A stretch of 64,000 bases of DNA from the human T2T-CHM13v2.0 reference genome, Homo sapiens. The position numbers and the translations under genes were made by a program. A model generated the notes under the pieces. That model had not been told where the DNA came from. It ran no database searches and worked only from the letters and a program-made list of their open reading frames with translations. Where the stretch lies: NCBI RefSeq assembly GCF_009914755.1, contig NC_060936.1. The stretch is one strand, 5' to 3'. Below, piece after piece: positions 12,438-61,041 of this stretch; the first letter of the stretch is position 1, and the number at the start of each line of letters is the position of its first letter.

Positions 12438-13011
12438 ATGGCCTCTCCAAGGAAGGTAACTGAGAAGCGGCATAACCCAGTGGAAAGCATCTGTAGAAAG
12501 ATCAGAGCCATCCACAAGAGAGAAGCAATTTCAAATCCAATTCAGCAGATTATCAAATACCAATCTAGCAGTTTTGATAGCCCACAGACGAACACCAAGA
12601 AATATTTTGAAGAGGTACTGAGGAAAATGACTGCTGCTTGTGTTCCTACGCCCGGCTCTCATTGGTCAAGTTCTGAGGAAGTCGATGCCTTCATTTCATC
12701 GCCTCAAATAATATCTCCAAGAACCCCATCCACCTCTCACCTCAGCTCCCCTGAGACTGCAACATACTCTGTTATTCTCACAAGTTCTGAAAACGTCTCA
12801 AAGCCGAAGTCACAGAGCAACAAGAATTATACATCTTTGATGTCACAGATCAGAAAAGCAGAGTTTTTCTCTAACAAGGATTTGAATAACTATTGTAGTG
12901 AAAATAATTTTAGTACCTTAACACTTGACTTTGATTCCACCTTTGTTCAAAGCTTGAAGTGTTTTGATCCTCAGGATTCAGTGGTAAAAAAATTATCTCT
13001 GAATGAAGATG
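12438..13011 (+). CDS. IRAG2: Long IRAG2/LRMP isoform, coding exon 1 (aa 1-191, MASPRKVTEKRHNPVESICRKIR...KKLSLNED)
   Basis: ATG in strong Kozak context (acaATGG). Acceptor ...ctttag at 12402-3 with branch-like actgac at 12363. Donor G|GTAAAT after 13011, phase 1. Confidence 0.85.
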
Positions 13012-13336
13012 GTAAATATTCATCTTTTAATGTTTGTCCTTCCAATAGAGCAATAAACATATCTACTTTTAGAATACCTGAACTAAAAAAAAATCTACAT
13101 TATTAAAGTTTGGATGGAATCATCCATCTTTCCCTTTCTGTTTTAACTATGTTTGTTTCCAGAACAAAACAGAACGTCATGATGGGAATACTTAGATATA
13201 GGGGAATATTTCCCTATATCTAAGGGGAAGGCTGTTTATTATGATAGGTTTTCTTTGTTAAACCAAAAAAAAAAAAGGAAAATTAATCATTATAGCACAG
13301 AAAGCATCAGGATTTACAAACTTTTTCTTCTAATAG

Positions 13337-13450
13337 GATGGAAACAAGAAGCTGATGATGGTAAAGAAGATGTAATATACAGCATCAACAGGGCCTGTAA
13401 AGAAGAGGCACTCACAAGTATTTTTAATGCATGTGACATCAAACGGAAAG
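13337..13450 (+). CDS. IRAG2: Coding exon 2 (GWKQEADD...EEALTSIFNACDIKRK); start of EF-hand 1
   Basis: ttttcttctaatag| ... AAG|GTAAGC, phase 1-1. Resembles KASH5 EEQILNSTFEACDPQRTG. Confidence 0.92.
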
Positions 13451-13874
13451 GTAAGCTAAAAATTATCTGTTTAAACATTTGGTAGGACTGTCCAAGTCAT
13501 CTGAACTTTCTATTGTGAGAGAAAGGGAAATGATTTGTGTGTGGGTCTCATTGTCTGCGTCTACATATGTGATGGATGCCACCTAATTTGGGAATAAGGT
13601 TTGCTCTGTAGGGCTTGGTTATTTCGTTATAATTTCCCTGTACCTGTTTTGCATCAGCATATTTTAACAGTGACTTGAATGATTCTTTTTGAGCTTATCA
13701 GCTGACTTACCATCTTTATTTATTGAAACTACTTACATGTCGTAGGTGGCGCCCCACAGGAAATATGCTTTTCAAATATGTAAAACCACTATACAAAATT
13801 TTAGTTAATTTTGGGCTTTCACTTCTGTTTTTCTTTAATTTTTATTTTTGAGATGTGTTTTTTAAAAAATTTCC

Positions 13875-14975
13875 AGACCTAAAACTACAAAAACCCTAGG
13901 AAATACCATTCTGGACATTGGCCTTGGCAAATAATTTATTAATAAGTTCCCAAAAGCAATTGCAACAAAACAAAAATTGACAAGCGGGACCTAATTAACC
14001 TCTGCACAGCAAAAGAAACTGTCAATAGAGTAAATAAACAATCTACAGAGAGGTAGAAGATATTCACAACCATGCATGTGACAAAAGTCTAACATCCAGA
14101 CTCTGTAAGAAACTTAAACAATTCAACAAACAAAAAATAACCTCATTAAAAAGTGGGCAAAGGACATGAACAGACACTTCTCAAAAGAAGACATACATGC
14201 AGCCAACAAATATATGAAAAAATACTCATCATTACTAATTATTAGAGAAATGCAAATCAAAACTGCAATGAGATACCATCTCACACCAGTCAGAATGGGT
14301 ACTATTAAAAAGTCAAAAACCAACAGATGTCGGTGAGGTTATCGAGAAAAGAGAACACTTACACATTGCTGGTGGGAATATAAATTAGTTCAGCCACTGT
14401 GGACAGCAGTGTGGAGATTCCTCAGAGAATTTAGAGCTACCATTTGAGCCAGCAATCTGTCCACTGGGTATGTACCCAAAGGAATGTAAATCATTCTACC
14501 TGAAAGACATATGCACTTATATGTTCATCACAGCACTGTTCACAATAGAAAAGACATGGAATCAACCCAAATGACCATGAACAGAAGACTGGATAAATAA
14601 AATGTGGTACCTACACACCATGGAATACTATGCAGCCAAAAAAACAAACAAGATCATGTCCTTTGCTGCAACATGGATGCAGCTGGAGGCTATTATCCTA
14701 AGCGAACTAATGCAGGAACAGAAAACCAAACACTGCATGTTCTCAATTTTAAGTGGGAGTTAGACATTGTATATACATGGAAACAAAGATGGGAACAATA
14801 GATATGGGGACTACTTGAGCAGGGAGGCATGGGCTGAAAAACTACCAGTCACATATTATGCTCAGTACGTGGGTGATGGGATCATTTGTACACTAAACCT
14901 CAGCAACACGCAATTTACTCATGTAGCAAACCTGCACATACACCCCCTGAACCTAAAAGTTGAGAGAAAAAAAAA
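13875..14975 (+). mobile_element. 5'-truncated L1 (old L1PA/L1PB 3' end)
   Basis: ORF2 C-terminal and 3' UTR motifs (gagataccatctcacaccagtcagaatgg, aacctgcacatacaccccctgaacctaaa). Confidence 0.9.
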
Positions 14976-15633
14976 TTCCACAAGTAATTTTAAGTATATA
15001 AATGATTCATGCTCATTTGTAATAAAATTAATAATATACTGACAAGCGAAAAGAAGGAAAAAAAATTGGTAATCCTGTTTCCCTGAGTAACCATTGTTAG
15101 TGACTTGTTGTATATCTTTCCACAATTCCTGTCAATATGGTTTTGTTTTATTTGAATTCATAATTGTTTGTTATAGAACATTTCAAACATATACAGAGGT
15201 AGAATTCTATGATGAATCCTTATGTATTTGTCATAACCAATTATGTCTCATTTCTAACCCTGCGCATTTTCCTCTCCTCTACTCTGGATTATTTTGAGGC
15301 AAATCGCAGAGATCATAGTATTTCATCCACAAATATTTCAGTACATATTTCTAAAAGATAATTGACTAATTTAAAACACAACTACAATGCCATTATCATG
15401 ATTTTAAAAGTAATATACTTTTCTAATATTATCAAATGTCTTGTTAGTAGTCAAAATTTCTCATTTGTGTGATAGATACATATCCTTTTTTTCTTAAACA
15501 GTTTTACTGTTCAAGCCAATATCCAAGAAATGTTTATTCATTGCAGTTTGTTGTCTGTCTTATCTCTGTGTTTCGCTTTCCATCTGTTTTTTGCATTTTG
15601 TTGTCTGTTAAAGAAACCCATCCATTGATTGAT

Positions 15634-15957
<324 letters not shown>

Positions 15958-16414
15958 TGATTGTGTATCTGTAGGAACACAAGCTGTTTCTCTGTCTCCT
16001 ATGTTTAGAAATATGATCAGATAAAAGTTTGAGGGTTTTTATTTTATTTTTTTTTATTTTATGGGGGCAAGAATTCTAATAGGTTGGTACAAATGTGACT
16101 GCAGTTTTTAACCATTGAGAGTAATGGCAAAAACCACAACTACTTTTGCATCAACCTAAATACATAGATGGTGTTATGTGTTTTCAACAGAAGGAAACTA
16201 TTGATGATGAAGGCCTAGACCTATATTTTCATTAGATGTTGCAAATGGTAATATTCTATCATTCCTTCCTAATGTATCACCTGAAATACATCTATAATGA
16301 GAAACTCTATTCCGCGTTATGAACTATTTTGCTATACTGGTGTCCTGAAGGAGAGAGGCAGGATAAAAGCTTGATTGATTCTCTTTACCTACCAGTTTTA
16401 AAAATACTAAACTG

Positions 16415-16860
16415 GGGCTGGGTGGGGTGGCTCATACCTGTAATCCCAGCACTTTAGGAGGCCAAGGTGGAGGCTCTGCTTGAGCCCAGGAGTTTGAGAC
16501 TACCCTGGGAAACATAGTGAAACCATGTCTCCACTAAAAATAGAAAAATTTAGGCGGAGTGCAGTGCTTCAAGCCTGTAATCCCAGCACTTTGGGAGGCT
16601 GAGGTGGGCAGATCACTTGAAGCCAGGAATTTGAGACCAGCCTAGCCAACATGGTGAAACCCCACCTCTACTAAAAATATAAAAATTACCCAGGCGTGGT
16701 GGCACACACTTGTAATCCCAGCTACTAGGGAGGCTGAGGCACAAGAAGCGTTTGAACTCAGGAGTTGGAGGCTGCAGTAAGTTGAGATGGTGCCACTGCA
16801 CTCCAGCCTGGGAGACAAAGCGAAACTCCATCTCAAAATAAAAGAAAAATTAGCTGAGCA
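16415..16860 (+). mobile_element. Alu left arm followed by a full Alu
   Basis: Alu consensus. Confidence 0.88.
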
Positions 16861-17116
16861 ACATAATTGCTAAAGATAGTGTAAGGTGTTTTCTTGGTCA
16901 TCCTTTTTTTTAAAAAAGTGATATACTAATGTATTCTCTAGTATGTGTGAGAATGTTTTCAAACTTGTTTTATAATCTGCTTTTTCTCATTTAATAATTT
17001 GAGTACCTGTCTGCATCAAAAAATTTTCTTCATATGCTATACCATTTTTGATGTAACATGTTTAACCAATCCATGTCAATTGGATATTAATTTTTTCTGC
17101 TTTAAAAATTATAATA

Positions 17117-18161
<1,045 letters not shown>

Positions 18162-18287
18162 GGAGGCCTTTCTAGTTTTGATATGACAGAGGGCTTAGAG
18201 TTTCAGTGGAGGAAAATATGATAAATGATTATTGCTGGCTTTCCAGCTTGCTTTCCAGTTCTTCTACAAATAAAATAATGCAATTCT

Positions 18288-18606
<319 letters not shown>

Positions 18607-19464
18607 TTAGTCATTTTATTTCTCTTTCTAATAGTGTCACATCTAAATGACATGTTAAGTTTAAATAATGTTAAAGTTATTAAAAACTTTGAAGTTATTC
18701 AGCCTCCTTTATGAGTATCTCCTCCTTCTAATTAAGAGACTTTTTTTTTTCTGATGTCATGGTCTATCCTTATTTCCTTAAGGGAAGAACCTTCTCTGTG
18801 GCATCTGCCCTCTCAAACTTCTACTTAATTTTTCCCTCTCCTTTGCAAGTAGCCAGCCCAAGGCAGGCCTTTGATGGGAGTAAAAGAAAAGTCTTATGTT
18901 TAAAAAAGATTGGTGTGTCAATGACTAACATAGTTTGGATGATTTTCTTTTCTGAATGTGATAGTAGGGATGACTGTCTAAAAATGCCTCCTCCACCCCC
19001 TAAAAAGTAGAAATTTTCACTTGAGATTGAAATTTTAACTAAAGTAGAGAAAAAAACTTCCTTCATTGAAGGCTTTTCAAGGAACTGAAAGGAAAAAATG
19101 TAATGTCATTTTGGTCACCTCCCACGAGAAATTATTGATTACATATATCATCAATATTTAAACCTCGCAACTCTGTGTGATAGGTATCATCGTCCCCATC
19201 TCAGATAAAGAAACAGGTTCAGAGAGGTTAATATTCCCAAAGCTACACAGCTGGTAATCTTCAGAGCCAAGATTTGACACTAGGTCCATTAGACTTTAGC
19301 CCAAGGCCAGTGTTCTTTACAATATACCATGCCAGCTCCGCAGGACTGCCAGGGTTATATATCATGTTTCTAGGATCAGGAAACATTAAAGAGATAGGTG
19401 CTTCACTTGTGAAAAATATAACTTTTCTGTCTTTCAGAACTGATCTGCTCTTCTTTTTCCAAAG

Positions 19465-19645
19465 GCTCAGTCGGAGTGGCCAAAATAATCAATTTCCTGA
19501 GACAAACAACTAGCCAAAATTCTGAAGACAGTGGCCTTGAGCAGTTGTGGAACATGCTTGATCCTGAGAAGAGAGACCCACATGTGGACCTGGAAACTTT
19601 CCAGGCCATGATGAAAGACTGGATGGCTTACTGTGGAAACACATG
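19465..19645 (+). CDS. IRAG2: Coding exon 3 (GSVGVAKIINFLRQTTSQNSEDSGLEQLWNMLDPEKRDPHVDLETFQAMMKDWMAYCGNT); EF-hand pair
   Basis: ttctttttccaaag| ... ATG|GTAATC, phase 1-2. Resembles KASH5 ...LDPNGEGPKATVDLDTFLVVMRDWIAAC. Confidence 0.93.
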
Positions 19646-19746
19646 GTAATCAGAGTCCTAGTGGGATGCAGTTTAAGGTTCTATTTTAACAATTGATTAT
19701 AATTATGCTAATCACTGTTTCCTGTGTTGATGGAAATACTATTGTC

Positions 19747-19916
19747 CAGTGCTTTAGCATGCATTAGAATCACCTGAATGATGTTAAACCTGATTGCTGG
19801 GGTCCCACCATCATGATTCAGCAGATCTGGGGTGAAGCCTGATAATTTACATTCTAACAAGTTTCCGATGATATTGATGCTGGGAGTGGGCTGGACATGC
19901 TTTGGGAACCACTGCT
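19747..19916. mobile_element. MER5A-like hAT-Charlie element
   Basis: gcattagaatcacctg...cattctaacaagttt...tttgggaaccactg. Confidence 0.75.
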
Positions 19917-20137
19917 GTCATTCATTTCTTGTGATTAGTGGGGAGCACATGTGATACTCTCACAGAGAATTGAGCTGACATACGAGTCAGGTGAATTATT
20001 GATACTATCCAATCTCCAAATGTATTTAAATTCAATAATAGACTCCCTTTTAAGGGCAGTGGGGCTAGTCAGTGAATGTAATTTGGAATCCTAGAATATA
20101 GGGAGGCTAAGGGGAACAAGAAAGAATAGTAGAATAG

Positions 20138-20955
<818 letters not shown>

Positions 20956-21226
20956 TTACCAGATTTCTGGTAGGATTAGGATGTATAGATAACTAAAGAA
21001 AATATGACTGAAATGTTGCATGCCATACACATTTTATTCATGAAGTCAAGATAAATATATAGAAATAAGTAATGTTAGTGTAATCAAAAACTGCAAATAC
21101 AGATATAACATTTCTACCCATGAGTTTAACAAAGATTTTTAAAAAATGACTCTAGCCCATGTGGTGGACTGTGAAAAGGGTGGAGAAATAAGCCCTCCCA
21201 TATATTATTGGTAGTAGTGCAAGTTA

Positions 21227-21656
<430 letters not shown>

Positions 21657-21886
21657 CTAATATAGAAGGTAGAAGGTAGTTTATGACAGTGATAAATACA
21701 AGCAATCTAGATATTTAAAAAGAGACAATTGGACAAATTATAGTGCTTCCATACACTAGAATACTAGTCATTTAAAGTAATAATATTTGATAAGAGAAAT
21801 TAATATGTAATTACTTCAAATAAATAGGTCATAGATCTATTCATGTAGTATAATCCCATTTTTGGAAGAAATAAAAATATGCATAG

Positions 21887-22266
<380 letters not shown>

Positions 22267-23275
22267 TAATTTTTTGTTTTCTTAAGAATTTAATATTTCC
22301 AAAATATATGTTTGTATAATAAAAATATTAATAATTATAAAACAGCATGAAGACAAAAGAAAAAACATTTTTATAACAAGTGTAAAGGAAAAATCATGGG
22401 CGCTAGAAATACAGAAGATAAGAGCAGAAACTCAGAAATGGGGATAGGTGTGAACACGAGAATAGTCAGAACTCTGTGTGAGTTCTTTCATTCCCCCAAC
22501 TTGTGACAGACATCTCACAATGACAAACAATGAGATGTAAACATATATTTGTTGAATTTTGTGGCTATTCCAGAGAGAAGCTTGAGGATTTGGTGCTTAG
22601 GTTAAGTAACAAAACTTAAATTATAATATAGGACTCTGAAAGGAAATGGTTGAAATGTTAATATGTTTATTTTGCAGTTCAAGCTAGAGTGTGTGTGCTA
22701 CACAGCCTGTACAGAGGGTTTCCCAGATTCCAGAAGTAAAATGCCCAAAGTAAAATTAGTCGAGGTTCTATTTGATTCTCCATGAGAAAGGGAAAATGTA
22801 TCCCTGTCAATGTATCCCAAAGTATTCATTGTTCGTGTATTTCCTTCTCAATCTCTTAAGCCCCATGATCTTGCAACCTCCACAAGTCTCCACTTACCAG
22901 TCCAACCTATGTCTATTTCCTAATCCACCGAGACCCCACATCTCCTAATCATACGCTGCCTGTGAGTTTTCTTTTTCATATTAGGTAAAAGTGTATGGAT
23001 GGTGGAGGTAATGCCTAATGTACCACCTACATTAGAAACAGTTTCACTAGGAACACAGACTATTTTCTATCACTCTAAGTACCTAGCATAGTATTGAGCT
23101 CCAAATAGTTGTTGAATGAATATATATTTTTTTAACTCAGAAGGAATTACCTAAAAAGGAAAGTACAGAGCATAAATCTGAAAAAAAAAAAAAAAAAAAA
23201 AAAAAAAGACAAAACTTGGTCAGGCAAAGAATCCTAGCTCACTGGTTTTGTTTTTTTTTTTTTTTTTGGCTACAG

Positions 23276-23355
23276 GGAAGGAGTGAATCATAGATTAAGC
23301 AGCATCATCGATGATTCTGTTTGTGAACAGGATGGCATAAAATCAGATGGAACAA
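23276..23355 (+). CDS. IRAG2: Coding exon 4 (WEGVNHRLSSIIDDSVCEQDGIKSDGT)
   Basis: T-tract+ggctacag| ... CAA|GTATGT, phase 2-1, open frame. Confidence 0.85.
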
Positions 23356-23443
23356 GTATGTATGTGTTTCTTCAGGATTGTTCTGTTTTCTTACGGTTTG
23401 TAGAAAATGATTTTTTTTCATAAAACTCTTGTATGTGTTTCAG

Positions 23444-23522
23444 TGAAGATGAGCACAGATATAACAGATTCTACATTGGGGAGCTTCGAGGCTTTGGGAG
23501 GAGAAACATCTAAAGGAGTCTT
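23444..23522 (+). CDS. IRAG2: Coding exon 5 (MKMSTDITDSTLGSFEALGGETSKGV)
   Basis: gtgtttcag| ... CTT|GTAAGC, phase 1-2, after an 88-nt intron. SFEALGGE resembles KASH5 NLESFGGE. Confidence 0.9.
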
Positions 23523-23961: not shown

Positions 23962-24327
<366 letters not shown>

Positions 24328-24576: not shown

Positions 24577-24878
<302 letters not shown>

Positions 24879-25228: not shown

Positions 25229-25387
25229 AGAGGTGTCTGATTTGATTGCCTACGTAGCAGACCTTCATTTCAACAAAAGAAAACTTGAGGAAGAAAATAA
25301 TAAGTTTAAGTTGGCTTTAGAAACCCTGGAAGAAACTAACAGCCAGTTATCAGAGGACTGTACCGAATTGCGCCTTCAGGTAAAAAG
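25229..25387 (+). CDS. IRAG2: Coding exon 6 (LEVSDLIAYVADLHFNKRKLEEENNKFKLALETLEETNSQLSEDCTELRLQVK); coiled coil
   Basis: ttttacttgcag| ... AAG|GTGAGC, phase 2-2. Resembles KASH5 ADLLSSLEDLELSNRRLVGENAKL. Confidence 0.93.
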
Positions 25388-25439
25388 GTGAGCCACAGTG
25401 GGGTCCAGTGTGCGGGGAACTTTCATTTCTTTTTTCTTT

Positions 25440-26603
<1,164 letters not shown>

Positions 26604-28887: not shown

Positions 28888-29005
28888 TGCCCACCAGGCT
28901 ATTATGAGAACAAATCTGTTAAAAGAAGAACTGGAGGAACTGAAACTTAGTATGAATGCTTCAGAAGAGCAGAAGAGCATGATTGTAGCCCAGAGCAAAC
29001 AATTA
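28888..29005 (+). CDS. IRAG2: Coding exon 7 (SAHQAIMRTNLLKEELEELKLSMNASEEQKSMIVAQSKQL)
   Basis: cccccacag| ... TTA|GTAAGT, phase 2-0. Resembles KASH5 STQQALQFAKAMDEELEDLKTLARSLEEQNRSLLAQARQA. Confidence 0.93.
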
Positions 29006-31967: not shown

Positions 31968-32018
31968 GAGACAGAAAACCGGGCTCTGATTCTTAAGATT
32001 CGGATTCTACAGGAAGAG
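31968..32018 (+). CDS. IRAG2: Coding exon 8 (ETENRALILKIRILQEE)
   Basis: ...gaattag| ... GAG|GTATGT, phase 0-0. Resembles KASH5 EKEQQHLVAEMETLQEE. Confidence 0.9.
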
Positions 32019-34885: not shown

Positions 34886-34963
34886 AATTTCAAGAACATC
34901 ATGGATATAGACAGACTGGAAAAGAAGATTGAAGACTTGTCTAAAACTGAGACAGAGCACCAA
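34886..34963 (+). CDS. IRAG2: Coding exon 9 (NFKNIMDIDRLEKKIEDLSKTETEHQ)
   Basis: tcttttacattag| ... CAA|GTAAGC, phase 0-0. Confidence 0.9.
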
Positions 34964-38374: not shown

Positions 38375-38431
38375 ATGCAGTTACACACATATGAGAACAC
38401 TTTGCTTAATAAAGATACAAGTTTGCAGAAG
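38375..38431 (+). CDS. IRAG2: Coding exon 10 (MQLHTYENTLLNKDTSLQK)
   Basis: tctcttttcag| ... AAG|GTTGGT, phase 0-0. Resembles KASH5 RQLFECEHLICQRDTILSE. Confidence 0.88.
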
Positions 38432-40238: not shown

Positions 40239-40298
40239 AAAGGCTTATATATAGAAGAACTTAAATCAACCATCATAGAATATGGAAGCATTATAGAG
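40239..40298 (+). CDS. IRAG2: Coding exon 11 (KGLYIEELKSTIIEYGSIIE)
   Basis: ttctacttttcag| ... GAG|GTATAC, phase 0-0. Resembles KASH5 RTRDVESLAQTLEEYRVTTQ. Confidence 0.88.
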
Positions 40299-40401: not shown

Positions 40402-40466
40402 AATTTACGAGGGGAAAAAAGTAAACTGGCTCATGAGTTACAGCACTTGCAACAGGCACTCATCAC
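40402..40466 (+). CDS. IRAG2: Coding exon 12 (NLRGEKSKLAHELQHLQQALI)
   Basis: gattccag| ... CAC|GTAAGT, phase 0-2, after a 103-nt intron. Resembles KASH5 ELRLEISRLEEQL. Confidence 0.88.
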
Positions 40467-41941: not shown

Positions 41942-42041
41942 AAATGGGATCCAGTTGAATGTTAATGGAGAGTGTAACAGTATCATCTCTGAAGGAGAAA
42001 AGTCTTTACATTACGAACTCACTCTTGCTCAGTCTGCAGAG
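41942..42041 (+). CDS. IRAG2: Coding exon 13 (TNGIQLNVNGECNSIISEGEKSLHYELTLAQSAE)
   Basis: tgtttttctcaag| ... GAG|GTAGGT, phase 2-0. Confidence 0.88.
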
Positions 42042-43746: not shown

Positions 43747-43881
43747 AACACTGAAACAGAAAGGCAGCACAATGTAATCAACTTGTCATCTCTGGACGCC
43801 ATGATGGATCAGGAAATGCTGCTATTACTAAGAGAGCCCGCACAGAAGGCAGTGGAATTCACAGCCACGCTTCAGAAGCTG
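43747..43881 (+). CDS. IRAG2: Coding exon 14 (NTETERQHNVINLSSLDAMMDQEMLLLLREPAQKAVEFTATLQKL)
   Basis: ccttgtttcag| ... CTG|GTATCG, phase 0-0. Confidence 0.85.
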
Positions 43882-44678: not shown

Positions 44679-44780
44679 CACGAAGAAATTTCTAAAATTG
44701 CAACCCTCATTGAAAACTCTCGACGGTGGGTAACTAATCCAGAAATTACTGTGAAAGAAAAGTGGGAGGAGCAGCTTACT
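44679..44780 (+). CDS. IRAG2: Coding exon 15 (HEEISKIATLIENSRRWVTNPEITVKEKWEEQLT)
   Basis: ctcttttttcag| ... ACT|GTAAGT, phase 0-0. Confidence 0.87.
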
Positions 44781-46067: not shown

Positions 46068-46231
46068 GAATTCAACAATATCATGGAAGAGAAGCTAGAT
46101 CTTTGCATATTAATGCTGAACATCTTGGGAAACCACAAAGAGTCTCTTGATAAAGAATTTGCCAAATTAATAGAGATTTTGAAGAGATTCAGGCAGGAAT
46201 ATTTTTATTTCAGAAAAGAATTTCTTGCCAG
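46068..46231 (+). CDS. IRAG2: Coding exon 16 (EFNNIMEEKLDLCILMLNILGNHKESLDKEFAKLIEILKRFRQEYFYFRKEFLA)
   Basis: ttttcttgtag| ... CAG|GTGATG, phase 0-2. Confidence 0.88.
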
Positions 46232-50052: not shown

Positions 50053-50098
<46 letters not shown>

Positions 50099-50420
50099 GT
50101 TTGTTTGTATACTGAGTTGAAATATAAAATATTTCATGATTAAAAAGTTATAGACTTAGGAACTATTGCTGCAGTCCAGGTGAGGGATGTAGTGTGGGTC
50201 AGGGTAATAGTCATGGAAGTGATAAGAAATTATTAAATTTGAAGTGTATTTTTGAGGGTGGATCTGATCAAACATGCTGGCAAGTTATATGTGTGGAGAA
50301 AGAGAGGAGTCATCCTTGACTTAGAGGCTTTTGATCTGAAAACCAGGTAAATGGTGTGCTATTTAGACAGCTGAGAAAGATGCAGACTGGAATAGAAATC
50401 AAGATTTATCATTCGAACAT
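48930..50420 (-). mobile_element. L2 remnant with nested minus Alu (49565-49903)
   Basis: Degenerate L2 motifs (gttccaggcagag, gagaagccatcagagggtt, ctattgctgcagtccaggtgag). Confidence 0.65.
50054..50100. repeat. (TG)n microsatellite
   Basis: About 16 perfect TG units plus an imperfect tail. Confidence 0.95.
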
Positions 50421-50559
50421 GTTGGCAGGGAGAATTGTTGGATTTAAACACAAACACAAGCTAATATATACCTCTTTACATGATGATAAAATTTCTGTGG
50501 GAGAAAAATCTTCAAAGGTTTATCATCTGTTGAATATCTTTAACAGATGGTACCATCTA

Positions 50560-50852
<293 letters not shown>

Positions 50853-53800
50853 CCCATCTAGTATTTTTAAAAAGCTATTTCTAAGACTTATGATTCATAA
50901 AGTTCATAAAACACGTTGTTATATTGGTGAAAATACATATAAGTAATTGAAAGTGTGAGTATTAATAAATAAGGATTTATGATGGTCCTTAAAGTCCTTT
51001 TGCTTTCTCTTGGAAGATAATGGACACTCTTGAAAATATAGACTATTCCTGTAAGAGAGAAAAGTAGATAAAAGTGATGTCTTTGAAATTAAAAAAAAAA
51101 AAAAAGAAGAGGAATGATTCCTGCAAGATGGTGGAATAGGAAGCTCTGGACCCTCCTTCTCTCCAGGAGCACATGAATTCAACAACAATACATGAACAAA
51201 TTCCTATTGTGAAGAACCCAGAAACTAGTTGAGAGGCTCCTGAATCCTGAGTGAGAGTGAATCCAGCTTCATCAAGGCTGGTAGGAAAATCTGAGGAATC
51301 CTCACCATAATCCTTATCCCTAGCTTAGCGCCACGCCAATGGAAAGAAACCTCCAGCTCTCAGCTTCTCCCTAGCATGGTGGGGTGGGGAGGAGAATCAA
51401 ACCACATGTCCAACATTTCAGCTTTCCTGGGGGCTGCCTAAGATACTGGCTTCTGTTTCACTTGTCTTATAGTGCTAATGGGACCTGGCATACTCTAGAT
51501 GCCTGGATACCACTGAAAACGAAGAAGGTAGTTTGAACTAGCATGCATGCGCTTGCTGGAGCCCCTACTCCCAGCTCAGTGAAAAGCCCTAGGTCTCAGC
51601 TTCTTTCCAGGGATGAAAGGATGGAAGAGCTGGATTATGTATCCAATGTTTCAATTTTTCTGGATGCTGCCCAAAGAATTGGCTTCTGTCTTACCTGTCT
51701 CGGAGTACTATGAGACGCATCATGCTCTAGATGCCTGGGGGCTGCTAGAAACAAAAATGGTGGTTTGGATTAGTGTGAGTGTTTGAGACCACCCCTGGCC
51801 TCCAGAATCTCTTCCTGGATTGATTAAGGGATTTCTCCGGTATGAGACCAGTATGTGAAGACTGGGAGAGTTGGCTATTTTTTCTAATGCATAGTTAAAA
51901 AGAGTCAAGGACAATAAAGAAGTAGGAAAATATGTTGCAAACAAAGGAACAAAATAAAGCTCCAGAAACGGACCCTAATGAAACAGGTAAAGAACTTACC
52001 TGACAGAGAATCCCATAAAAATGCTCGTGGTCAGAAGAAAATGCCTGTGCAAAGTAAGAATTTTAACAAAAAGAAAATACAAACACAGAACACTGTAACA
52101 CTGTAATGGTTGTGGTTAAATCACTTTTAATTCTTATATAAAAGTTAAAAGTATTATAAGTAAAAATAACTATAAAAATGTTTATGATACATAACTAAAA
52201 ATATGTAAATTATGATATCAATAATAAAGTGTTTGAAGGAGAGAGTAATAGAATAGAGTTTTTATATGTGATGGAATTTAGGTTGTTAGCTTAAAATAGA
52301 CTATTATAAGATGTTTTATGTACGCTCCATGGTAATGCCAAAGAACATACCTATAGAGCAGACACACACACAAAGAAAGGAATCAAAGAATATTAATACA
52401 GAGAAGTCAACAAAACTCAAAGGAAGGCAAGCAGAGAGGAAAAGAGGGAAAAAATAACTACAAGACAGACAGAAAAATAATAAAATGGCAGTAGTAAGTC
52501 CTTCCCTATCAATAATTACTTCAAATATAAATGGATTAAACTTACCAATCAAAAGACATAGAGGGCTGAACATATTAAATTTAAAAAGCCCAGATTCAAC
52601 TATATGCTGTCTCAAGAGTCTCACTTTAGATTTAAGTACATACATAAACTGAAGGTGAAGAGATGAAAAAAGATATTCCAAGCAAATGGCAGCCAAAAGA
52701 GAGTATGGGTAACTATATCAGACAAAATAGACTTTAAGTCAAAAACTGTCATAAGAGACAAAGAAGGACATTATATAATAAAAGGATCAACTCACCAAGA
52801 AAATACGATATCTACACACCCAACATTAGAGAACCTAAATATATAAAGCAAACACTGACAGAACTGAAGGGGGAAATAGAAGACATAGACAGCAATAAAA
52901 TAATAAGAGACTGTAGTATTTCATGTTCAATAATGGATAGAACATTTAGACAGAAAATCAATAAGGAAACAGCAGGCTTGAATGGCACTAGAGAGTAAAT
53001 GGACCTAACACAGAACATTCTGCCCAACTGCAGTAGAATATACATCTTTCTTAAATGCACATAGAACATTCTTCAGGATAGACCACACATTAGGTCACAA
53101 AACAAAGAGTAACAAATTTAAGATTATTGAAATCATACTAATTATCTTTTTCCTACCATAATGGAATAAAACTAGAAATGTATAGCAGAAGGAAAACGGA
53201 AATATTCACAAATATGTGAGAATTAAACAACAGACTCCTGAACAACAAATAGGTCAATGAAGAAATAAAGAAAATTAGACTTGAGACAAATGAAAACAAA
53301 AGCACATACCAAAATCTTTGGGATGTAGAAAAAGCAGTACTCCTAAGAGGGCATTTTATAGTGATAAACACTTATACTAAAAAAGAAAATAAATTTCAGA
53401 TAAACCTAACTTTTTACACTTCAATGAACTAGAAAAAGAACAACTTAAGCCCAAAGTTCCTTCCCAAGAGAAAGGAAATAATAAAAATTAGAGCAAAAAG
53501 TTGTTTAAAATAGAAAAGCAATTAAAAAGCAGCAAAACTAAGAGATGGATTTTTGAAAAGATAAACAAGACAGACAAACCTTTAGCTAGACTGAGAAGAA
53601 GACTCAAAATCAGAAATGAAGGAGATATTACAACTAGAACTGCAGAAATACAAAGGATTATAAAAGACTAGTATAAACAATTTTATGCCAACAAATTAGA
53701 TAACCTAGAAGAAATGGAAAAATTCCCAGAAACATACACCCCATCATATTTCTTTATGAATCATGAAGAAATTGAAAATCTGAAAAGATCTACAACCAGT

Positions 53801-55517
53801 AAGGAGATTGTCTCAGTAATTAAACACCTCCCAAAAAAGAAAAGCCCAGTATGAGATGGCTTCACTGGTGAATTCTACCAAACATTTAAAGAAGATTAAC
53901 GCTAATCCTTCTGAAAGTCTTTACCAAATAAAAGATAAAAAAAAAAAAAAAAGGAAAGGAAAAGGAAGGTACACTTACAAATTCATTTCATGAGGCCAGC
54001 ATTATCCTGATACCAAAGCTAGGCCAGTACCCCTGATGATGCAAAATCCTCAAGAAAATATAAGCCAGTCAAATACAAAAGCACATTGAAAGGCTTATAC
54101 ACTATGACCAAGTGGGATTTATTTCTGGGATGCAAGGATGGTTCAATATATGCAAATTGATTATCTTGATATACCACATTAACAGAATGGAGCATAAATA
54201 TTTTGTGATCATCTCTATAGGTGCAGAAAAAACATTTGATAAAATTTAACAGTATTTTGTGTAAAAACTCTTAAGAAACTAGGAATAGAAGAAAATTATC
54301 TCAACATAATAAAAGTAATGTATGAAAAACTCAGTGAACATCACTCAATGGTAAAACACAAAGTTTTTCCTCTAAGATCAGCAACAAAGCAAGGATGCTC
54401 ACTCTCACCGCTTCTGTTCAGTGTAGTACTAGCCAGAGCATTTAGGCAAGAAAAAAAAATAAAAGGCATATAAATATAAAAGGAAGAAGTAAAATGATCT
54501 CTGCAGATAACATGATCTTATTTATAGAAAACTCTAATGATTTCACAAAAAAACCTGTTAGAATAAAATTTAGTAAAGTTGCATGACACAAAATCAACAT
54601 ACCATAATAAATTTCGTTTATATATGAGCAACATTGAACCATCTGAGAAAGAAATTAACAATCTCATTTACAATAGCATCAAAAAGAATACTTTGAAATA
54701 AATTTAAAGAGGTAAAAAACATATAATAAAAACTACAAAATATTGATGAGAGAAATTAAAGAAGACACAAATAAATGAAAAGGCATCCTACGTTCACAGA
54801 TTGGAAGAGATCATGTTGTTTAAATGTCCATACTACCCAAAGCAATCTATAGATTCAATGCAATCCCTAACAAAAATTCCAATCACATTTTTTTACAGGA
54901 ATAGAAAGAAAATCCTAAAACTTATGGAACCATGAGGGACCCTGAATAGCTGAAAACAATCTTGAGAAGAAAGAACAAAGATGGAGACATTACCGTTCCT
55001 GATTTCAAAATATATTACAAAGCTACAGTAATTAAACCAGTATGGTATTAGCATAAAGACAGATATATAGACCAATGAAACAGAAGAGAGAGCCTAGAAA
55101 TAAACCAATGCATAGATGGTCAATTGATCTTCAACATAGATACTAAGAATATGTAATAGGGAAAGGATAATCTCTTCAACAAATGGTGCAGGGATAACTG
55201 GACATCCACAGACAAAAGAATGAAATTGGACTCTTATACCATAAACAAAAATCAATTAAAAATGGATTAAAGATGTAAATTTAAGACCTAAAACTGAAAA
55301 CACCTAGAAGAAAACATGGGGGAAAGCTTCATAACATTGGTCTTGGCAAGATTTCTTGGATATGACACCAAAAGCACAGGCAACAAAAGCAAAATAGGCA
55401 TGTTGGACTGCATCAGTCTGAAAAGCTTCTGCACAGCAAAGAATACAATGCAATGAAAAGACAACCTATGGAATGGGAGAAAATATTTGTAAACTAAAAA
55501 ACTGATAAGGGGTTAAT

Positions 55518-57547
<2,030 letters not shown>

Positions 57548-57791
57548 TATGGGGTTAATATTTAGAAAATATAAGAAACCCCTACAACTCCAGAACAACA
57601 ATAAAAAAACACAAATAACTAGATTTAAAAATAGACAAAAGACTTGAATAGGCATTTCTCAAAAGAAGACGATAAATGGCCAAACAGGTGTACAAACATA
57701 CTCAACATAACTAATCATTAGGAAAATGCAAGTTAAGACTATAATTAGATATTGTATCATACCTGTTAGGATGGCTATTATTTTAAAAGAC

Positions 57792-58647
<856 letters not shown>

Positions 58648-60319
58648 TTACAGAGTTTTCTCAAAATATTAAAAATTAAACTACCATCTGATCTAGGAAC
58701 CCCACTTCTGGGTATTTATCCAAAATAATTAAAATCAGCACCTGGAAGAGCTATTTGCATTCCCATATTCACTGCGGCATTATTCTCAATAGCCAAGATT
58801 TGGAAACAACCTGAATGTCCACGGATGATTGGATAAAGAAAATTTGGTATGTAAATACAAGGGAATATTATCCAACCTTTAAAAAGAAGGAAATTCTGCC
58901 ACATATGACAACATAGATAAACCTGGAGGACACTATCCCAAGTAAAATAAGTGAGTCACAGAACAACAAATACTGCACGATCCCACTTCTCTGAGGTATC
59001 TAAAATAGTTAAACTAATAGAAAGAGAGAGAATAGTGGTTGCCAGGAGCTAGGGGAGGGGAAATGAGGAGTTGCTACTCAATAGGTATAAAGTTTCAGTT
59101 ATGCAAGATGAAGATGTTCTAGAGATCTGCTGTACAACATTATGCCTGTAGTTAATAATACTGTATTGTACACTTAAAAATTTGTTAAGTGGGTAAATCT
59201 CCTGTTAAATGTTCCTGCCACAGTTAAAGAAAAAGAGAGAAAAAGAGAGAGAGAGAGACAACGATAAGCTATTGAAGGACGCTCAGTGGAAAGTGTGGTG
59301 ATGTAGGCAGTTTTTATTTTTGCTTAGGATTTTGTTTGCTTGTTTACCAGTATGGTAAGCATTCTGTGAGACCATTCTTGCCTCTCATGTGGTCCTTCGT
59401 GTAACCAGGGCTGGATTTGTGCCAGTGTGCAGTGGCATTCTGACTAAATGTTAACGTTTGAGAGGCATGCACAAGGCCTACGGCTGACAATGTCTTCCTT
59501 GTTGTTTTGCAACTCCCGACATTTATCACCACTTTGAGTTAAGGTCCATATTCAAGTCAGATTGTTTCCAGATAATCATTGAGGTACTGGCATGTAACAC
59601 ACATTAAATAATCTCATCTGCCAACAGAGAGTAAGTGCATTTTTACATGTTTTAGAGATTAGAATTGGATCCAAATGAGGTGTAACGTAATGGCACCATG
59701 AGATCTGTGGTGGGGAAGGGTGATGGGGAGAAAAGCTTCAGCAAAAAGAGGACTAAAGTAGAAATATCAACCGCCAGCTTTCATCTGTGCCTGGGGGCGG
59801 TCCTTCCTGTGCTCGTGGCACGTGTTTATACTATGATTGACAACCCTTAAGGAGAAAGGCTAAGGTCATGAAACAAAGCTCTCTTTCCTTTTCTTTTCCC
59901 TCCCCCTACCTTTACCCCATTCCTTTCTTTTTCTGTAAAAGCTAGCTGTGATGTGTAAATGTTGCACCTGTCACCCTGACCTCATTGTAGAGCCATCTTC
60001 TGAGTAACTGGCAACTGGCAACTGATGCTAAGTGCTATGAATGCAGCTGGTGGGAACTGAACACACCAGTGTAAAAGATGAAACTAGAAGTCCTTATCTG
60101 TAAAGTGAGGGTGTCAGGCTAAGCGACCAATAAGCTTTGCTTAAGATTTTATATTTGTGAAGCATTTATATGTAAATACTTTCACTTTTTCCTCTGATCT
60201 CTAAGGAAGTGGTGTTAAGTTTGAGTTTGTCATAATTTCACAGGGTGACTCTTAGTTGAAATGTCACTGACAGCTTGCGGTTTGGACTTTTTTTTTTTTT
60301 TTTTTTTTTTTAACTCCAG

Positions 60320-60434
60320 TCAGAAACAACTAGAAGCCATTAAACAACTACAGGAAGATGCTGTCAACCAGGAAGGCATCCTTAGGAAGAGCCTCCAAGA
60401 AACCAGCCAACGGCTGGAGGATGTGGAGGAGCAG
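60320..60434 (+). CDS. IRAG2: Coding exon 17 (SQKQLEAIKQLQEDAVNQEGILRKSLQETSQRLEDVEEQ)
   Basis: Long T-tract+aactccag| ... CAG|GTAGGG, phase 2-0, matching exon 16 across a 14-kb L1-filled intron. Confidence 0.88.
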
Positions 60435-60539
60435 GTAGGGTGGCTCATGGCTACATTAGATTCAGGGGACATCTCCTCAGATGCCCTGCAAACCATGAAA
60501 TAAAAATGGAGGAGGAACAACAACAACAAACAAAAAAAA

Positions 60540-60800
60540 AAAGCAAAGAGGAACTGCAAGTTCAGTCCCTAGCGACTAACAGTGAGCAGAGGAAGTAAAG
60601 GGGGAGTTGTAAGAGAGGCGGTATCAACAGCCTGCTGATGAAAGAGGCGACTCTGCAGAAAGAGGCAACTTGACATATCAGGACTTTAACCGCTGTAGAA
60701 ATAGCTCAGGCATACCAAGCCCATGCAAACACAGAATTGCAGAAGTTCAGGAGAGGCTTATCACTTCCCTGAGAAGAAAAACACATTTTCAGTTTTGCCT
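60540..60800 (+). promoter_or_regulatory. Putative internal haematopoietic promoter of short LRMP/IRAG2
   Basis: PU.1/Spi-B-type AAAGAGGAACTG (60545) and AGAGGAAGT (60588); ETS+GATA CTTATCACTTCC (60757); near-octamer ATGCAAAC (60723). Confidence 0.55.
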
Positions 60801-60878
60801 GCATCATAAGAGTGAGCACTCCATTGCTTTCTTTCCTGGCCACACTGCTACAATCCAGCACTAACTATCCATGTCCAG

Positions 60879-61041
60879 GGTAAGGATCGAGATCGAGAAG
60901 CCCACACTGCCAGTGAAAAAGCTACGTCTTTACTGCATAAATTAGAGGAAGCAATTTCGGAACAACGGAACCTTCAAACTATAAATACTGAATTATCGAA
61001 CACTTGCCAGGCACTTCAGCAGAAGACAAGGAAACTGAAGA
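60879..61041 (+). CDS. IRAG2: Coding exon 18 (GKDRDREAHTASEKATSLLHKLEEAISEQRNLQTINTELSNTCQALQQKTRKLK); probably doubles as 5' UTR exon of short lymphoid LRMP
   Basis: Branch CTAAC at 60861, atgtccag| ... AGA|GTGAGT, phase 0-1, coiled-coil heptads. Sequence recalled as the LRMP mRNA 5' end. Confidence 0.8.

What the first reader, a model, noticed from the sequence alone, without database searches (positions are those of the whole stretch)
12438..61041. Intact 18-exon, 798-codon KASH5-like N-terminal extension of human LRMP/IRAG2: a candidate 'Futile cycle'-type nuclear-envelope dynein adaptor
Seen: 18 exons with canonical splice sites, consistent phases and no stop over 49 kb of repeat-filled introns. 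Exons 2-13 align in order with the KASH5 EF-hand pair and coiled coil. Established: KASH5 is the meiotic LINC-complex dynein adaptor. Zebrafish futile cycle (lrmp) combines a KASH5-like N-terminus with an LRMP-like C-terminus and is required for pronuclear congression and centrosome-nucleus attachment. The characterised mammalian LRMP/Jaw1 is the short form lacking this N-terminus. Inference: humans retain a long Fue-like isoform that would join a dynein-binding module to the LRMP IP3R-binding coil and TM/KASH-like tail. It may act in oocytes, zygotes or germ cells. A long transcript model may already be annotated, but I know of no functional characterisation.
Basis: partly seen in the sequence, partly recalled or inferred. 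Interest (0 to 1): 0.92.

Follow-up and report, generated by a model that had tools for sequence, protein, structure and literature searches.

The report
Long KASH5-like isoform of IRAG2
The human IRAG2/LRMP gene has 18 intact upstream coding exons that add a KASH5-like, probably dynein-binding, module to the protein; gene catalogues already list this form, but no paper found here has studied it, and it could link the nucleus to the dynein motor in eggs or germ cells.

Summary
Window 12438-61041 holds 18 exons, all with AG/GT splice sites. They give 798 open codons plus one base.

The exons encode four parts:
- a conserved N-terminal region;
- an EF-hand pair (Pfam EF-hand_9);
- a full KASH5-type coiled coil (Pfam KASH_CCD, 150.6 bits);
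- a second helical region.

KASH5 on chr19 is the only other human KASH_CCD locus. Twelve consecutive exons have the same lengths in both genes or differ by multiples of 3.

The frame runs on through the canonical 5'UTR exons into LRMP, giving a 39-exon, 1445-aa Fue-like ORF that ends in the TM/KASH6 tail.

The feature is already annotated. Exons 1-17 equal RefSeq NP_001308653.2 ("LOC645177", 766 aa). That protein ends by read-through into a stop/poly(A) signal in intron 17. Fused models of about 1440 aa exist from sawfish to primates.

Ten literature searches found no paper on the mammalian long form. One 2013 paper states it is absent.

Dynein-adaptor function is inferred: the three most critical LIC-contact residues are conserved. 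It is untested, and no human transcript data could be consulted.

The parts
5671..5714 (+). Non-coding first exon and upstream promoter of the long transcripts. It lies 110 bp from the 5' end of LINC02909, which is on the other strand.
   Evidence: Listed in the hub table. The donor is GTGAGT. There is no CpG island (observed/expected 0.2-0.3). An ATG at the exon's third base is out of frame and opens a uORF that overlaps the main start.
12404..13011 (+). Exon 1 with the start codon at 12438 (A at -3, G at +4). It encodes residues 1-191, including a deeply conserved N-terminal motif at about residues 10-27.
   Evidence: The N-terminal motif is nearly invariant from sawfish to human. It has no Pfam match and no second copy in the human genome.
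13337..13450 (+). Exon 2: start of the EF-hand pair (entering helix and first loop).
   Evidence: AG/GT sites. Pfam EF-hand_9 covers P0001 residues 219-282, which spans exons 2-3.
19465..19645 (+). Exon 3: main EF-hand exon. It holds V234 (the fue site) and L257, F275 and M279 (equivalents of KASH5 L77, F97 and M101). An alternative acceptor at 19438 adds 9 aa inside the loop of EF-hand 1.
   Evidence: Pfam EF-hand_9 scores 43.2 bits on this exon alone, against a cut-off of 37. The exon is 44% identical to the KASH5 exon on chr19. Residue mapping is; the alternative acceptor is.
23276..23355 (+). Exon 4: linker between the EF-hands and the coiled coil.
   Evidence: The KASH5 counterpart is 65 nt, a difference of 15 nt.
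23444..23522 (+). Exon 5: linker.
   Evidence: The KASH5 counterpart is 67 nt, a difference of 12 nt.
25229..25387 (+). Exon 6: start of the KASH5-type coiled coil.
   Evidence: Pfam KASH_CCD scores 47.2 bits, above the 43.3 cut-off, on profile positions 3-53. This is one of only two KASH_CCD loci in the human genome.
28888..29005 (+). Exon 7: coiled coil.
   Evidence: KASH_CCD profile positions 57-93. Its length of 118 nt is identical to the KASH5 exon.
31968..32018 (+). Exon 8: coiled coil.
   Evidence: 51 nt, identical in length to the KASH5 exon.
34886..34963 (+). Exon 9: coiled coil.
   Evidence: 78 nt, identical in length to the KASH5 exon.
38375..38431 (+). Exon 10: coiled coil.
   Evidence: 57 nt, identical in length to the KASH5 exon.
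40239..40298 (+). Exon 11: coiled coil.
   Evidence: 60 nt, identical in length to the KASH5 exon.
40402..40466 (+). Exon 12: end of the KASH_CCD match.
   Evidence: 65 nt, identical in length to the KASH5 exon. In P0001 the KASH_CCD match runs over residues 344-532.
41942..42041 (+). Exon 13: short linker carrying the conserved SLHxEL motif at 42003-42020 (residues 560-565). This is a possible Spindly-like dynactin contact.
   Evidence: The S-L-H-x-E core is present in 23 of 23 IRAG2-long rows of alignment A1; the sixth residue is L in 22 and M in the newt. The KASH5 counterpart exon is 88 nt, a difference of 12 nt.
43747..43881 (+). Exon 14: start of the second helical region.
   Evidence: The KASH5 counterpart is 123 nt, a difference of 12 nt.
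44679..44780 (+). Exon 15: second helical region.
46068..46231 (+). Exon 16: second helical region.
60320..60434 (+). Exon 17. It is preceded by a long run of T. Its donor is CAG|GTAGGG. It overlaps a RefSeq 'enhancer' element.
   Evidence: and the hub table.
60435..60504 (+). Read-through tail of the 766-aa soluble product: 22 codons, then stop TAA at 60501-60503, which lies inside the AATAAA at 60499-60504.
   Evidence: In 15 of 16 N-only models from other mammals the protein reads past the same donor, and 7 of 16 stop at the homologous position. A genomic run of A begins about 30 nt downstream, so oligo-dT internal priming cannot be excluded.
60879..61041 (+). Exon 18. It uses an internal acceptor inside canonical IRAG2 exon 1, preceded by a cactaac branch-point-like site. 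It joins the extension in frame to the downstream exons.
   Evidence: (P0002 residues 753-808, 94.6% identical).
60791..61041 (+). First exon (5'UTR) of the canonical short IRAG2 transcript. Its transcription start lies inside intron 17 of the long form.
   Evidence: Hub table (NM_001366544.2).

Best explanation
These exons are the coding 5' part of long, upstream-promoter transcripts of IRAG2 (LRMP/Jaw1/KASH6).

They encode, in order:
- a conserved N-terminal region (residues 1-200);
- a non-canonical EF-hand pair (about 205-290);
- a roughly 190-aa coiled coil paralogous to KASH5 (343-535);
- a short linker with an invariant SLHxE core;
- a second helical region (573-798).

Two products are likely.
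1. If exon 17 is spliced to exon 18, the frame continues through what are 5'UTR exons of the short mRNA. It then runs into the IP3-receptor-binding coil, the transmembrane helix and the SUN-binding tail. The result is a protein of about 1445 aa with the architecture reported for zebrafish Futile cycle/Lrmp.
2. If the exon-17 donor is not used, a stop and poly(A) signal 66 nt downstream give a soluble 766-aa protein. This is the RefSeq protein NP_001308653.2.

The proposed mechanism is inferred. The coiled coil dimerises. The EF-hand pair binds helix 1 of the dynein light intermediate chain, as in KASH5. The membrane-anchored form would then recruit dynein-dynactin to the ER or outer nuclear membrane, coupled to SUN proteins.

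Shown here: exon structure, intact frame, homology and conservation. Inferred: the 17-18 splicing in human, dynein binding, localisation and site of action.
For: **Intact frame**
- 18 exons with AG/GT sites give 798 codons and no stop.
- The frame continues through 21 further exons to the LRMP stop codon. That is 39 exons and 1445 aa, or 1454 aa with the alternative acceptor.
- From exon 18 to the canonical start, the canonical 5'UTR exons are open for 148 further codons with no ATG.

**Family membership**
- P0001 scores 150.6 bits on KASH_CCD (profile 2-190 of 191) and 55.4 bits on EF-hand_9.
- The fused monkey protein P0002 adds MRVI1 at 944 bits.

**Paralogy with KASH5**
- KASH_CCD matches only chr19 (KASH5) and this window in the whole genome.
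- BLASTP gives E 2e-38.
- Exon lengths are 187/65/67/162/118/51/78/57/60/65/88/123 in KASH5 and 181/80/79/159/118/51/78/57/60/65/100/135 here. Six are identical and every difference is a multiple of 3.

**Conservation**
- 50 of 69 relatives and 64 of 65 carry KASH_CCD together with MRVI1. They include primates, other placentals, marsupials, platypus, lizards, a bird, a newt, sturgeon, paddlefish and sawfish.
- Identity of the coiled coil to human is 75-89% in non-primate placentals other than hamster. The canonical LRMP N-terminal region is only 60-71% identical.
- Human departs at 3 of 216 columns that are conserved in the other placentals, the lowest figure of the 15 species.

**Dynein contact**
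- The three KASH5 residues whose mutation most impaired dynein binding are L77, F97 and M101 (PMC9242646, passages). They are L257, F275 and M279 here.
- The fue-mutation site V54 (PMC10071310, passages) is V234.
Against: - No transcript, ribosome or peptide data could be consulted. The only human protein record retrieved stops in intron 17 and lacks the anchor.
- Only 3 of the 9 LIC-facing KASH5 residues are identical. R73 is G and L98 is Q here.
- Profile and sequence searches of solved structures found no EF-hand dynein adaptor. The only strong hits were the IRAG2 tail peptides.
[quoted passage not shown] I cannot tell which exons that allele removed, or whether mouse has the extension.
- The review PMC10298018 says the LRMP luminal tail targets the protein largely to the ER. 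It reports that swapping in other KASH tails moves the protein to the outer nuclear membrane.
- The 5' exon carries an out-of-frame upstream ATG.
- The orthologous long proteins are mostly automatic gene models. Such models favour open frames.
Confidence: 0.55

Rival explanations
1. In humans the upstream exons work as a separate unit (the former LOC645177). They would make only the soluble 766-aa EF-hand/coiled-coil protein that ends in intron 17, and this product is never joined to LRMP. Any dynein-related role would then be cytosolic, or centrosomal by analogy with ZYG-12a, rather than membrane-anchored.
For: - The RefSeq protein retrieved, P0001, has exactly this structure.
- The stop lies inside an AATAAA signal.
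- 15 of 16 N-only models from other mammals read past the same donor, and 7 of 16 stop at the homologous codon.
- The exon-17 donor departs from consensus at +4 and +6.
Against: - Exon 18 and the 148 codons of 'UTR' exons stay open. They are 57-76% identical to human in non-primate placentals other than hamster, with 0-6% of residues gapped. A pure UTR would not be expected to keep a frame.
- 50 of 69 and 64 of 65 database relatives are fused forms.
- By my count, the hub's tally of IRAG2 exons in the window (12 listed plus 8 more) has room for both a terminal exon-17 form and exon 60879-61041.
- A genomic run of A begins about 30 nt after the AATAAA, so the short cDNA could be an internal-priming product.
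Confidence: 0.2
2. The long isoform is real, but its KASH5-like module does not recruit dynein. It could instead regulate IP3-receptor or HCN4 signalling, ER shape or oligomerisation of IRAG2, or bind microtubules in some other way.
For: - 6 of the 9 LIC-facing residues differ from KASH5.
- The characterised short protein acts on IP3 receptors, oligomerises through coiled coils and affects ER and Golgi shape (passages of PMC10298018 and PMC10827754).
- No structural or binding test could be run.
Against: - The three residues most critical for KASH5-dynein binding and the fue site are retained.
- The spacing from the EF-hand pair through the coiled coil to a conserved L-x-x-E motif resembles KASH5. 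The motif lies at 560-565 here; a potential Spindly motif lies at 371-376 in KASH5.
- Citing papers report that the zebrafish orthologue binds dynein and is needed for pronuclear congression (PMC3787381).
Confidence: 0.2
3. The exons are an evolutionary relic. They are transcribed at low level or only predicted, and have no protein function in humans.
For: - The papers that discuss mammalian LRMP describe it as the short protein only.
- The promoter is not a CpG island, and the 5' exon has an upstream ATG.
Against: - There is no stop or frameshift in 798 codons.
- Human departs from conserved placental columns less than any other species tested, at 3 of 216.
- The N-terminal and SLHxE motifs are nearly invariant since the split from cartilaginous fish.
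- RefSeq holds the product under an NP_ accession, which by my recall marks a curated rather than a model record.
Confidence: 0.05

Closest known systems
KASH5 (CCDC155), the meiotic LINC-complex dynein activating adaptor
   Same: - It has an EF-hand_9 pair followed by a KASH_CCD coiled coil in the same order, and is the only other such locus in the human genome.
- It is 29% identical over 362 aa.
- Twelve consecutive exons have the same length or a length differing by a multiple of 3.
- L77, F97, M101 and V54 are conserved.
- The EF-hand loops are non-canonical in both proteins (for KASH5; my reading of the loops for this protein).
   Different: - This protein has about 200 extra N-terminal residues with their own conserved motif.
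- It has a second helical region (573-798).
- In place of the short KASH5 C-terminus it continues into the whole LRMP protein.
- 6 of the 9 LIC-facing residues differ.
- Dynein binding has not been tested.
Zebrafish Futile cycle (Fue/Lrmp)
   Same: The reported architecture is the same: a KASH5-like N-terminal extension (about 343 residues similar to KASH5) on an LRMP-like C-terminus with a KASH tail (PMC3787381, Fig. 1 legend and text). The human 39-exon ORF matches this.
   Different: - I had no zebrafish sequence. The fish compared were paddlefish, sturgeon and sawfish.
- Fue's maternal role in pronuclear congression is known only from papers citing the 2012 study, which is not held.
- No mammalian function is known.
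Canonical LRMP/Jaw1/IRAG2 (KASH6), 555 aa
   Same: It is the same gene with the same C-terminal exons. The long ORF ends in the tail peptide that was crystallised with SUN1 (PDB 8b46, 8b5x and 7z8y match the end of alignment A1).
   Different: - The short form starts from a promoter inside intron 17 (transcription start at 60791).
- It treats exon 18 and the next four exons as 5'UTR.
- It lacks the EF-hand and KASH5-like coil.
C. elegans ZYG-12 isoforms
   Same: This is a functional analogy only. One locus gives KASH-anchored isoforms that recruit dynein to pronuclei and a KASH-less isoform at centrosomes (PMC13224763, passages). That resembles the anchored and soluble products proposed here.
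   Different: ZYG-12 is a Hook-domain adaptor and is unrelated in sequence. No homology is claimed or was tested.
EF-hand-pair dynein adaptors (CRACR2a, Rab45, Rab11-FIP3, ninein)
   Same: The layout is an EF-hand pair followed by a long coiled coil. KASH5 was modelled on the CRACR2a-LIC structure 6PSD (PMC9242646).
   Different: No sequence match to any of them reached E 1 in the searches of solved structures.

Membership tests
KASH5-like module (Pfam EF-hand_9 PF14658 plus KASH_CCD PF14662) | EF-hand_9 match above the curated cut-off | tested here: met
   P0001 scores 55.4 bits against a cut-off of 37, over residues 219-282. Exon 3 alone scores 43.2 bits.
KASH5-like module (Pfam EF-hand_9 PF14658 plus KASH_CCD PF14662) | Full-length KASH_CCD match above the cut-off, lying C-terminal to the EF-hands | tested here: met
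   150.6 bits against a cut-off of 43.3. Profile positions 2-190 of 191 align to residues 344-532.
KASH5-like module (Pfam EF-hand_9 PF14658 plus KASH_CCD PF14662) | Shared exon-intron structure with KASH5 (common descent) | tested here: met
   Of 12 consecutive exons, 6 have identical lengths and the other 6 differ by 3-15 nt, always a multiple of 3.
EF-hand-pair dynein activating adaptors | Hydrophobic pocket residues that contact LIC helix 1 | tested here: inconclusive
   3 of 9 are identical (L77, F97, M101, the three with the strongest mutant effect). Y60 becomes F, I36 becomes A, T40 becomes I, V64 becomes T, R73 becomes G and L98 becomes Q.
EF-hand-pair dynein activating adaptors | Direct LIC binding and activation of processive dynein-dynactin motility | not testable with these tools
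   This needs pull-down, ITC and single-molecule assays.
EF-hand-pair dynein activating adaptors | Long dimeric coiled coil followed by a Spindly-type motif | tested here: inconclusive
   The coil region is low in Pro and Gly (1.6%). The S-L-H-x-E core is invariant about 25 residues after the coil. Its second position is H, not the F or A of the consensus as I recall it.
KASH/LINC proteins (KASH6 = LRMP) | C-terminal transmembrane helix plus SUN-binding luminal peptide on the same polypeptide | tested here: inconclusive
   The genome permits it: the frame is continuous over 39 exons to the tail, and the tail matches PDB 8b46 and 7z8y. Whether human mRNAs join the two halves could not be tested. 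The RefSeq protein retrieved lacks the tail.
Futile cycle/Lrmp orthologue | KASH5-like N-terminus fused to an MRVI1-family C-terminus at the IRAG2 locus | tested here: met
   All three Pfam domains are present in P0002 and in the sawfish and newt proteins. The human exons align to P0002 from end to end. No zebrafish sequence was compared.
Futile cycle/Lrmp orthologue | Maternal requirement for centrosome-nucleus attachment and pronuclear congression | not testable with these tools
   This is a genetic and cell-biological property. It is known for zebrafish only, through citing papers.

The most novel reading that the evidence does not exclude
IRAG2-long, together with its soluble 766-aa sister product, may be the still unidentified KASH-type dynein adaptor in non-murine mammals, including humans. 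It would attach centrosomes to pronuclei and drive pronuclear migration and parental-genome clustering.

Mouse genetics would have missed it because the extension is degenerate or lost in murid rodents:
- there are no Mus or Rattus rows;
- the hamster model departs at 44% of conserved columns.

The KASH-domain dominant negative used in bovine zygotes (PMC8162515) should displace any KASH protein, by my understanding of such constructs. The phenotype seen there would then be compatible with this protein rather than KASH5.
Probability: 0.2. Interest if true: 0.85.

Novelty: new member of a known kind. Interest (0 to 1): 0.55.

Why it matters

The 2013 paper that linked KASH5 to zebrafish Fue states two things (PMC3787381):
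- the Fue N-terminal extension is absent from human and mouse LRMP;
- land vertebrates split the functions between two genes.

The sequence evidence here contradicts that for human and for most tetrapod lineages sampled. The full Fue-type gene persists alongside KASH5.

This gives a concrete and cheaply testable candidate for a membrane-anchored dynein adaptor in mammals. It also bears on studies of LRMP/IRAG2 in other settings:
- knock-outs;
- antibodies;
- association signals near the 5' end of the gene;
- the '5'UTR' exons of the short mRNA.

All of these should take the long and soluble products into account.

It is not a new discovery of sequence. RefSeq and UniProt already hold the models.

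Tried and rejected
**Exon finding**
- My first exon hunt used home-made splice scores. It found only 4 of the 7 missing exons. It also assumed a wrong phase after exon 12. I replaced it with protein-guided mapping.

**Length discrepancy**
- I looked for extra exons that could explain why the canonical protein is 555 aa (numbering in PMC10827754) while my model has 499 aa after the canonical Met.
- tblastn with 7 further orthologues found none.
- This is unresolved and lies outside the window. The real human long form may be longer than 1445 aa.

**Other negative searches**
- Searches of solved structures found no EF-hand adaptor.
- Rfam gave 0 matches in the window.
- The N-terminal motif has no second copy in the genome.

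**Tools and papers that gave no result**
- Pfam failed on a 17-residue exon. I repeated it without the short exons.
- Complex prediction (EF-hand region with the LIC1 helix-1 exon, P0207) was not available.
- Structure prediction was not ready and was still not ready after 20 further calls.
- The primary zebrafish paper (PMC3360835) is not held.

**Literature**
None returned a paper describing a mammalian long isoform.
- 'LOC645177' occurs in one paper, an electronic-health-record study (listing only).
- Supplementary tables are not covered by the search. Oocyte, testis and other transcriptome or proteome tables could list LOC645177 or IRAG2.

- dN/dS could not be computed, because only protein sequences of the orthologues were available.
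- The mouse and rat loci could not be inspected.

Full report
**What is there**

The window is the 5' part of human IRAG2 (LRMP/Jaw1). The 11 exons that the hub table lists for 'other transcripts' between 12404 and 40298 all have AG and GT sites. Spliced from the ATG at 12438, they give 517 open codons.

I placed the remaining seven exons by mapping two database proteins onto the window. A junction search that required AG/GT, an unbroken frame and the best match to the guide protein then refined them. The seven are 40402-40466, 41942-42041, 43747-43881, 44679-44780, 46068-46231, 60320-60434 and 60879-61041.

The total is 18 exons, 2395 nt and 798 codons plus one base, with no stop. An earlier attempt with my own splice scores found only some of these exons and used a wrong phase.

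**What it encodes**

Pfam scans were run on single exons because spliced sequence may not be typed into tools. They already gave EF-hand_9 for exon 3 (43.2 bits, cut-off 37) and KASH_CCD for exon 6 (47.2 bits, cut-off 43.3) and exon 7.

A search with exon 1 returned a human RefSeq protein, NP_001308653.2 'uncharacterized protein LOC645177' (P0001, 766 aa). It equals my spliced translation at 743 of the first 744 residues. On P0001:
- KASH_CCD matches end to end (profile 2-190 of 191, 150.6 bits, residues 344-532);
- EF-hand_9 matches residues 219-282 (55.4 bits).

Residues 343-535 and 573-798 are very poor in Pro and Gly (1.6% and 2.2%) and rich in charged residues. This fits two long helical or coiled segments.

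The first 200 residues have no family match. They begin with a motif of roughly 18 residues that is nearly invariant from sawfish to human. That motif has no second copy in the human genome.

**Relation to KASH5**

- In the whole assembly the KASH_CCD profile hits only chr19 and this window. The two best EF-hand_9 hits are the same two loci.
- The chr19 exon retrieves KASH5 proteins at 97-100% identity (298 proteins at E ≤ 0.001, 120 listed).
- BLASTP of P0001 against macaque KASH5 gives 29% identity and 52% positives over 362 collinear residues, E 2e-38.
- The gene structures match. KASH5 internal exons are 187, 65, 67, 162, 118, 51, 78, 57, 60, 65, 88 and 123 nt. IRAG2 exons 3-14 are 181, 80, 79, 159, 118, 51, 78, 57, 60, 65, 100 and 135 nt. 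Six are identical, and every difference is a multiple of three.

This is paralogy by duplication, not chance similarity of coiled coils.

**Continuity with LRMP**

I fetched 60 kb downstream of the window and mapped the 1454-aa snub-nosed-monkey protein P0002 onto it.
- Every exon is present in human.
- All junctions resolve with AG/GT.
- The frame never breaks over 39 exons. The product is 1445 aa, or 1454 aa if the alternative acceptor at 19438 is used.
- It ends in the LRMP transmembrane segment and luminal tail. That tail is the peptide crystallised with SUN1 (PDB 8b46, 8b5x and 7z8y match the end of alignment A1).

Exon 18 uses an acceptor at 60879. This lies inside the first exon (60791-61041) of the canonical short transcript, whose start site therefore lies in intron 17 of the long form.

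From exon 18 to the canonical start codon (residue 947 of my model) the frame is open for 202 codons with no ATG. This stretch is annotated as 5'UTR in the short mRNA.

One loose end remains. The canonical protein is numbered to 555 (PMC10827754, passages), but my model has 499 residues after that Met. I found no extra exon with seven more orthologues. The true human long form may therefore differ downstream of the window.

**A second, soluble product**

P0001 does not use the exon-17 donor. It reads 22 more codons to a TAA at 60501-60503, which lies inside an AATAAA (60499-60504).

Nineteen of the 69 relatives found lack the MRVI1 domain. I looked at 16 of them and left out three short or low-quality ones.
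- 15 of the 16 read past the same donor.
- 7 of the 16 (human, capuchin, elephant, camel, two bats, sloth) stop at the homologous position.

This suggests a conserved intronic-polyadenylation product. Two cautions apply:
- a genomic run of A starts about 30 nt after the signal, so oligo-dT internal priming is possible;
- this intron is also the promoter/enhancer region of the short form (hub table), which could explain its conservation.

**Conservation**

- 50 of 69 proteins found with exon 1 combine KASH_CCD with the MRVI1 domain, at lengths mostly 1300-1470 aa.
- 64 of 65 proteins found with a marmot EF-hand/coil query do the same.
- They come from primates, squirrels, guinea pig, mole-rats, hamster, ungulates, whales, carnivores, bats, afrotherians, xenarthrans, marsupials, platypus, two lizards, a bird, a newt, sturgeon, paddlefish and sawfish.

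Most are automatic models, so they are not independent proof of expression. They do show that the frame is intact in all these lineages.

| Region | Identity to human |
|---|---|
| Coiled coil, non-primate placentals other than hamster | 75-89% |
| Canonical LRMP N-terminal region, same species | 60-71% |
| EF-hand pair, sawfish to gecko | 47-55% |

At columns where at most one of the other 14 placental sequences deviates, human departs at 3 of 216 in the extension. This is the lowest of the 15 species, so I see no sign of decay on the human lineage. The three other primates in the set make this test lenient for primates.

The hamster model is the outlier: 51 substitutions and 82 gaps at 303 such columns. 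No mouse or rat protein appeared in either list. One search scored only the 8000 candidates sharing the most words, so that absence is weak evidence.

**Function (inferred)**

KASH5 is a transmembrane dynein activating adaptor. Its EF-hand pair binds helix 1 of the light intermediate chain (LIC) without needing calcium. Nine pocket residues were mutated, and L77D, F97D and M101D had the strongest effect (PMC9242646, passages). The zebrafish fue mutation corresponds to V54E (PMC10071310, passages).

In the human IRAG2 extension these four positions are L257, F275, M279 and V234. L257 is invariant in all 27 aligned sequences. The other six pocket residues differ, two of them non-conservatively.

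The S-L-H-x-E core of an SLHxEL motif is invariant about 25 residues after the coiled coil. It occupies roughly the place of the potential Spindly motif noted in KASH5 at residues 371-376.

I therefore think the most likely mechanism is a dimeric adaptor that recruits dynein-dynactin. When spliced to LRMP it would be anchored in the ER or outer nuclear membrane and coupled to SUN proteins. When terminated in intron 17 it would be soluble.

The structure and complex tools that could have probed this were unavailable.

**What is known**

- The feature is in RefSeq (the hub table; P0001) and UniProt. One example is a pig entry named 'KASH5-like coiled-coil domain-containing protein'.
[quoted passage not shown] It also says that terrestrial vertebrates have separate Kash5 and Lrmp genes, possibly after loss of 5' versus 3' exons. 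It cites unpublished data that Lrmp-null mice are fertile.
- PMC10071310 says the KASH protein for mammalian pronuclear migration is not known.
- Reviews and structural papers from 2013 to 2026 treat LRMP as the short lymphoid, taste-cell or ER protein.
- Ten full-text searches found no description of the long mammalian form. Supplementary tables were not searchable.

**Verdict**

The homology and the intact, conserved frame are solid. The existence of the models is already known.

Three things remain untested: the joining to LRMP in human cells, dynein binding, and a role at the nuclear envelope in eggs or germ cells.

I rate this an uncharacterised mammalian member of a known family. Interest is moderate to good because it contradicts a statement in the literature and offers a testable candidate for an open question.

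Noticed in passing
window 12465-12520 (exon 1, residues about 10-27): An N-terminal motif of roughly 18 residues is nearly invariant from sawfish to human. It has no Pfam match and no second copy in the human genome, and KASH5 lacks it. Its function is unknown.
   Followed up: partly
window 19438-19464: An alternative acceptor lies 27 nt upstream of the RefSeq acceptor. It is open in human and is used in the snub-nosed-monkey and pig models. It would insert 9 residues inside the loop of EF-hand 1, which could tune the binding pocket.
   Followed up: partly
window, codon for residue 730 in exon 17 (60320-60434): This assembly encodes Ser where RefSeq NP_001308653.2 has Arg. It is the only difference in 744 residues.
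   Followed up: no
window 60435-60878 (intron 17): This 444-nt intron contains the stop/poly(A) signal of the short soluble product, a genomic run of A, the transcription start of the canonical IRAG2 mRNA (60791) and a cactaac branch-point-like site before the exon-18 acceptor. RefSeq 'enhancer' elements overlap exon 17 itself (hub table).
   Followed up: partly
window 5561-5714: The long-form first exon (5671-5714) lies 110 bp from the 5' end of LINC02909 on the opposite strand, so the promoter is probably bidirectional. There is no CpG island. The exon has an out-of-frame ATG at its third base, giving a uORF that overlaps the main start codon.
   Followed up: partly
L003-L004 (window coordinates 69680-77520, outside the window): Four '5'UTR' exons of the canonical IRAG2 mRNA, and the start of the fifth exon up to the canonical ATG, are open in the long frame. 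They are 57-76% identical to human in non-primate placentals other than hamster, with few gaps. They therefore behave as coding sequence.
   Followed up: partly
proteins P0075 (hamster) and the lists: The hamster long model is short (1187 aa) and unusually divergent in both the extension and the canonical part. No mouse or rat long form was listed. The extension may be degenerating in muroid rodents.
   Followed up: partly
window 16437-16687 and 57955-58251: These are Alu-like tandem or adjacent repeat copies within introns. No Rfam family was found anywhere in the window.
   Followed up: no
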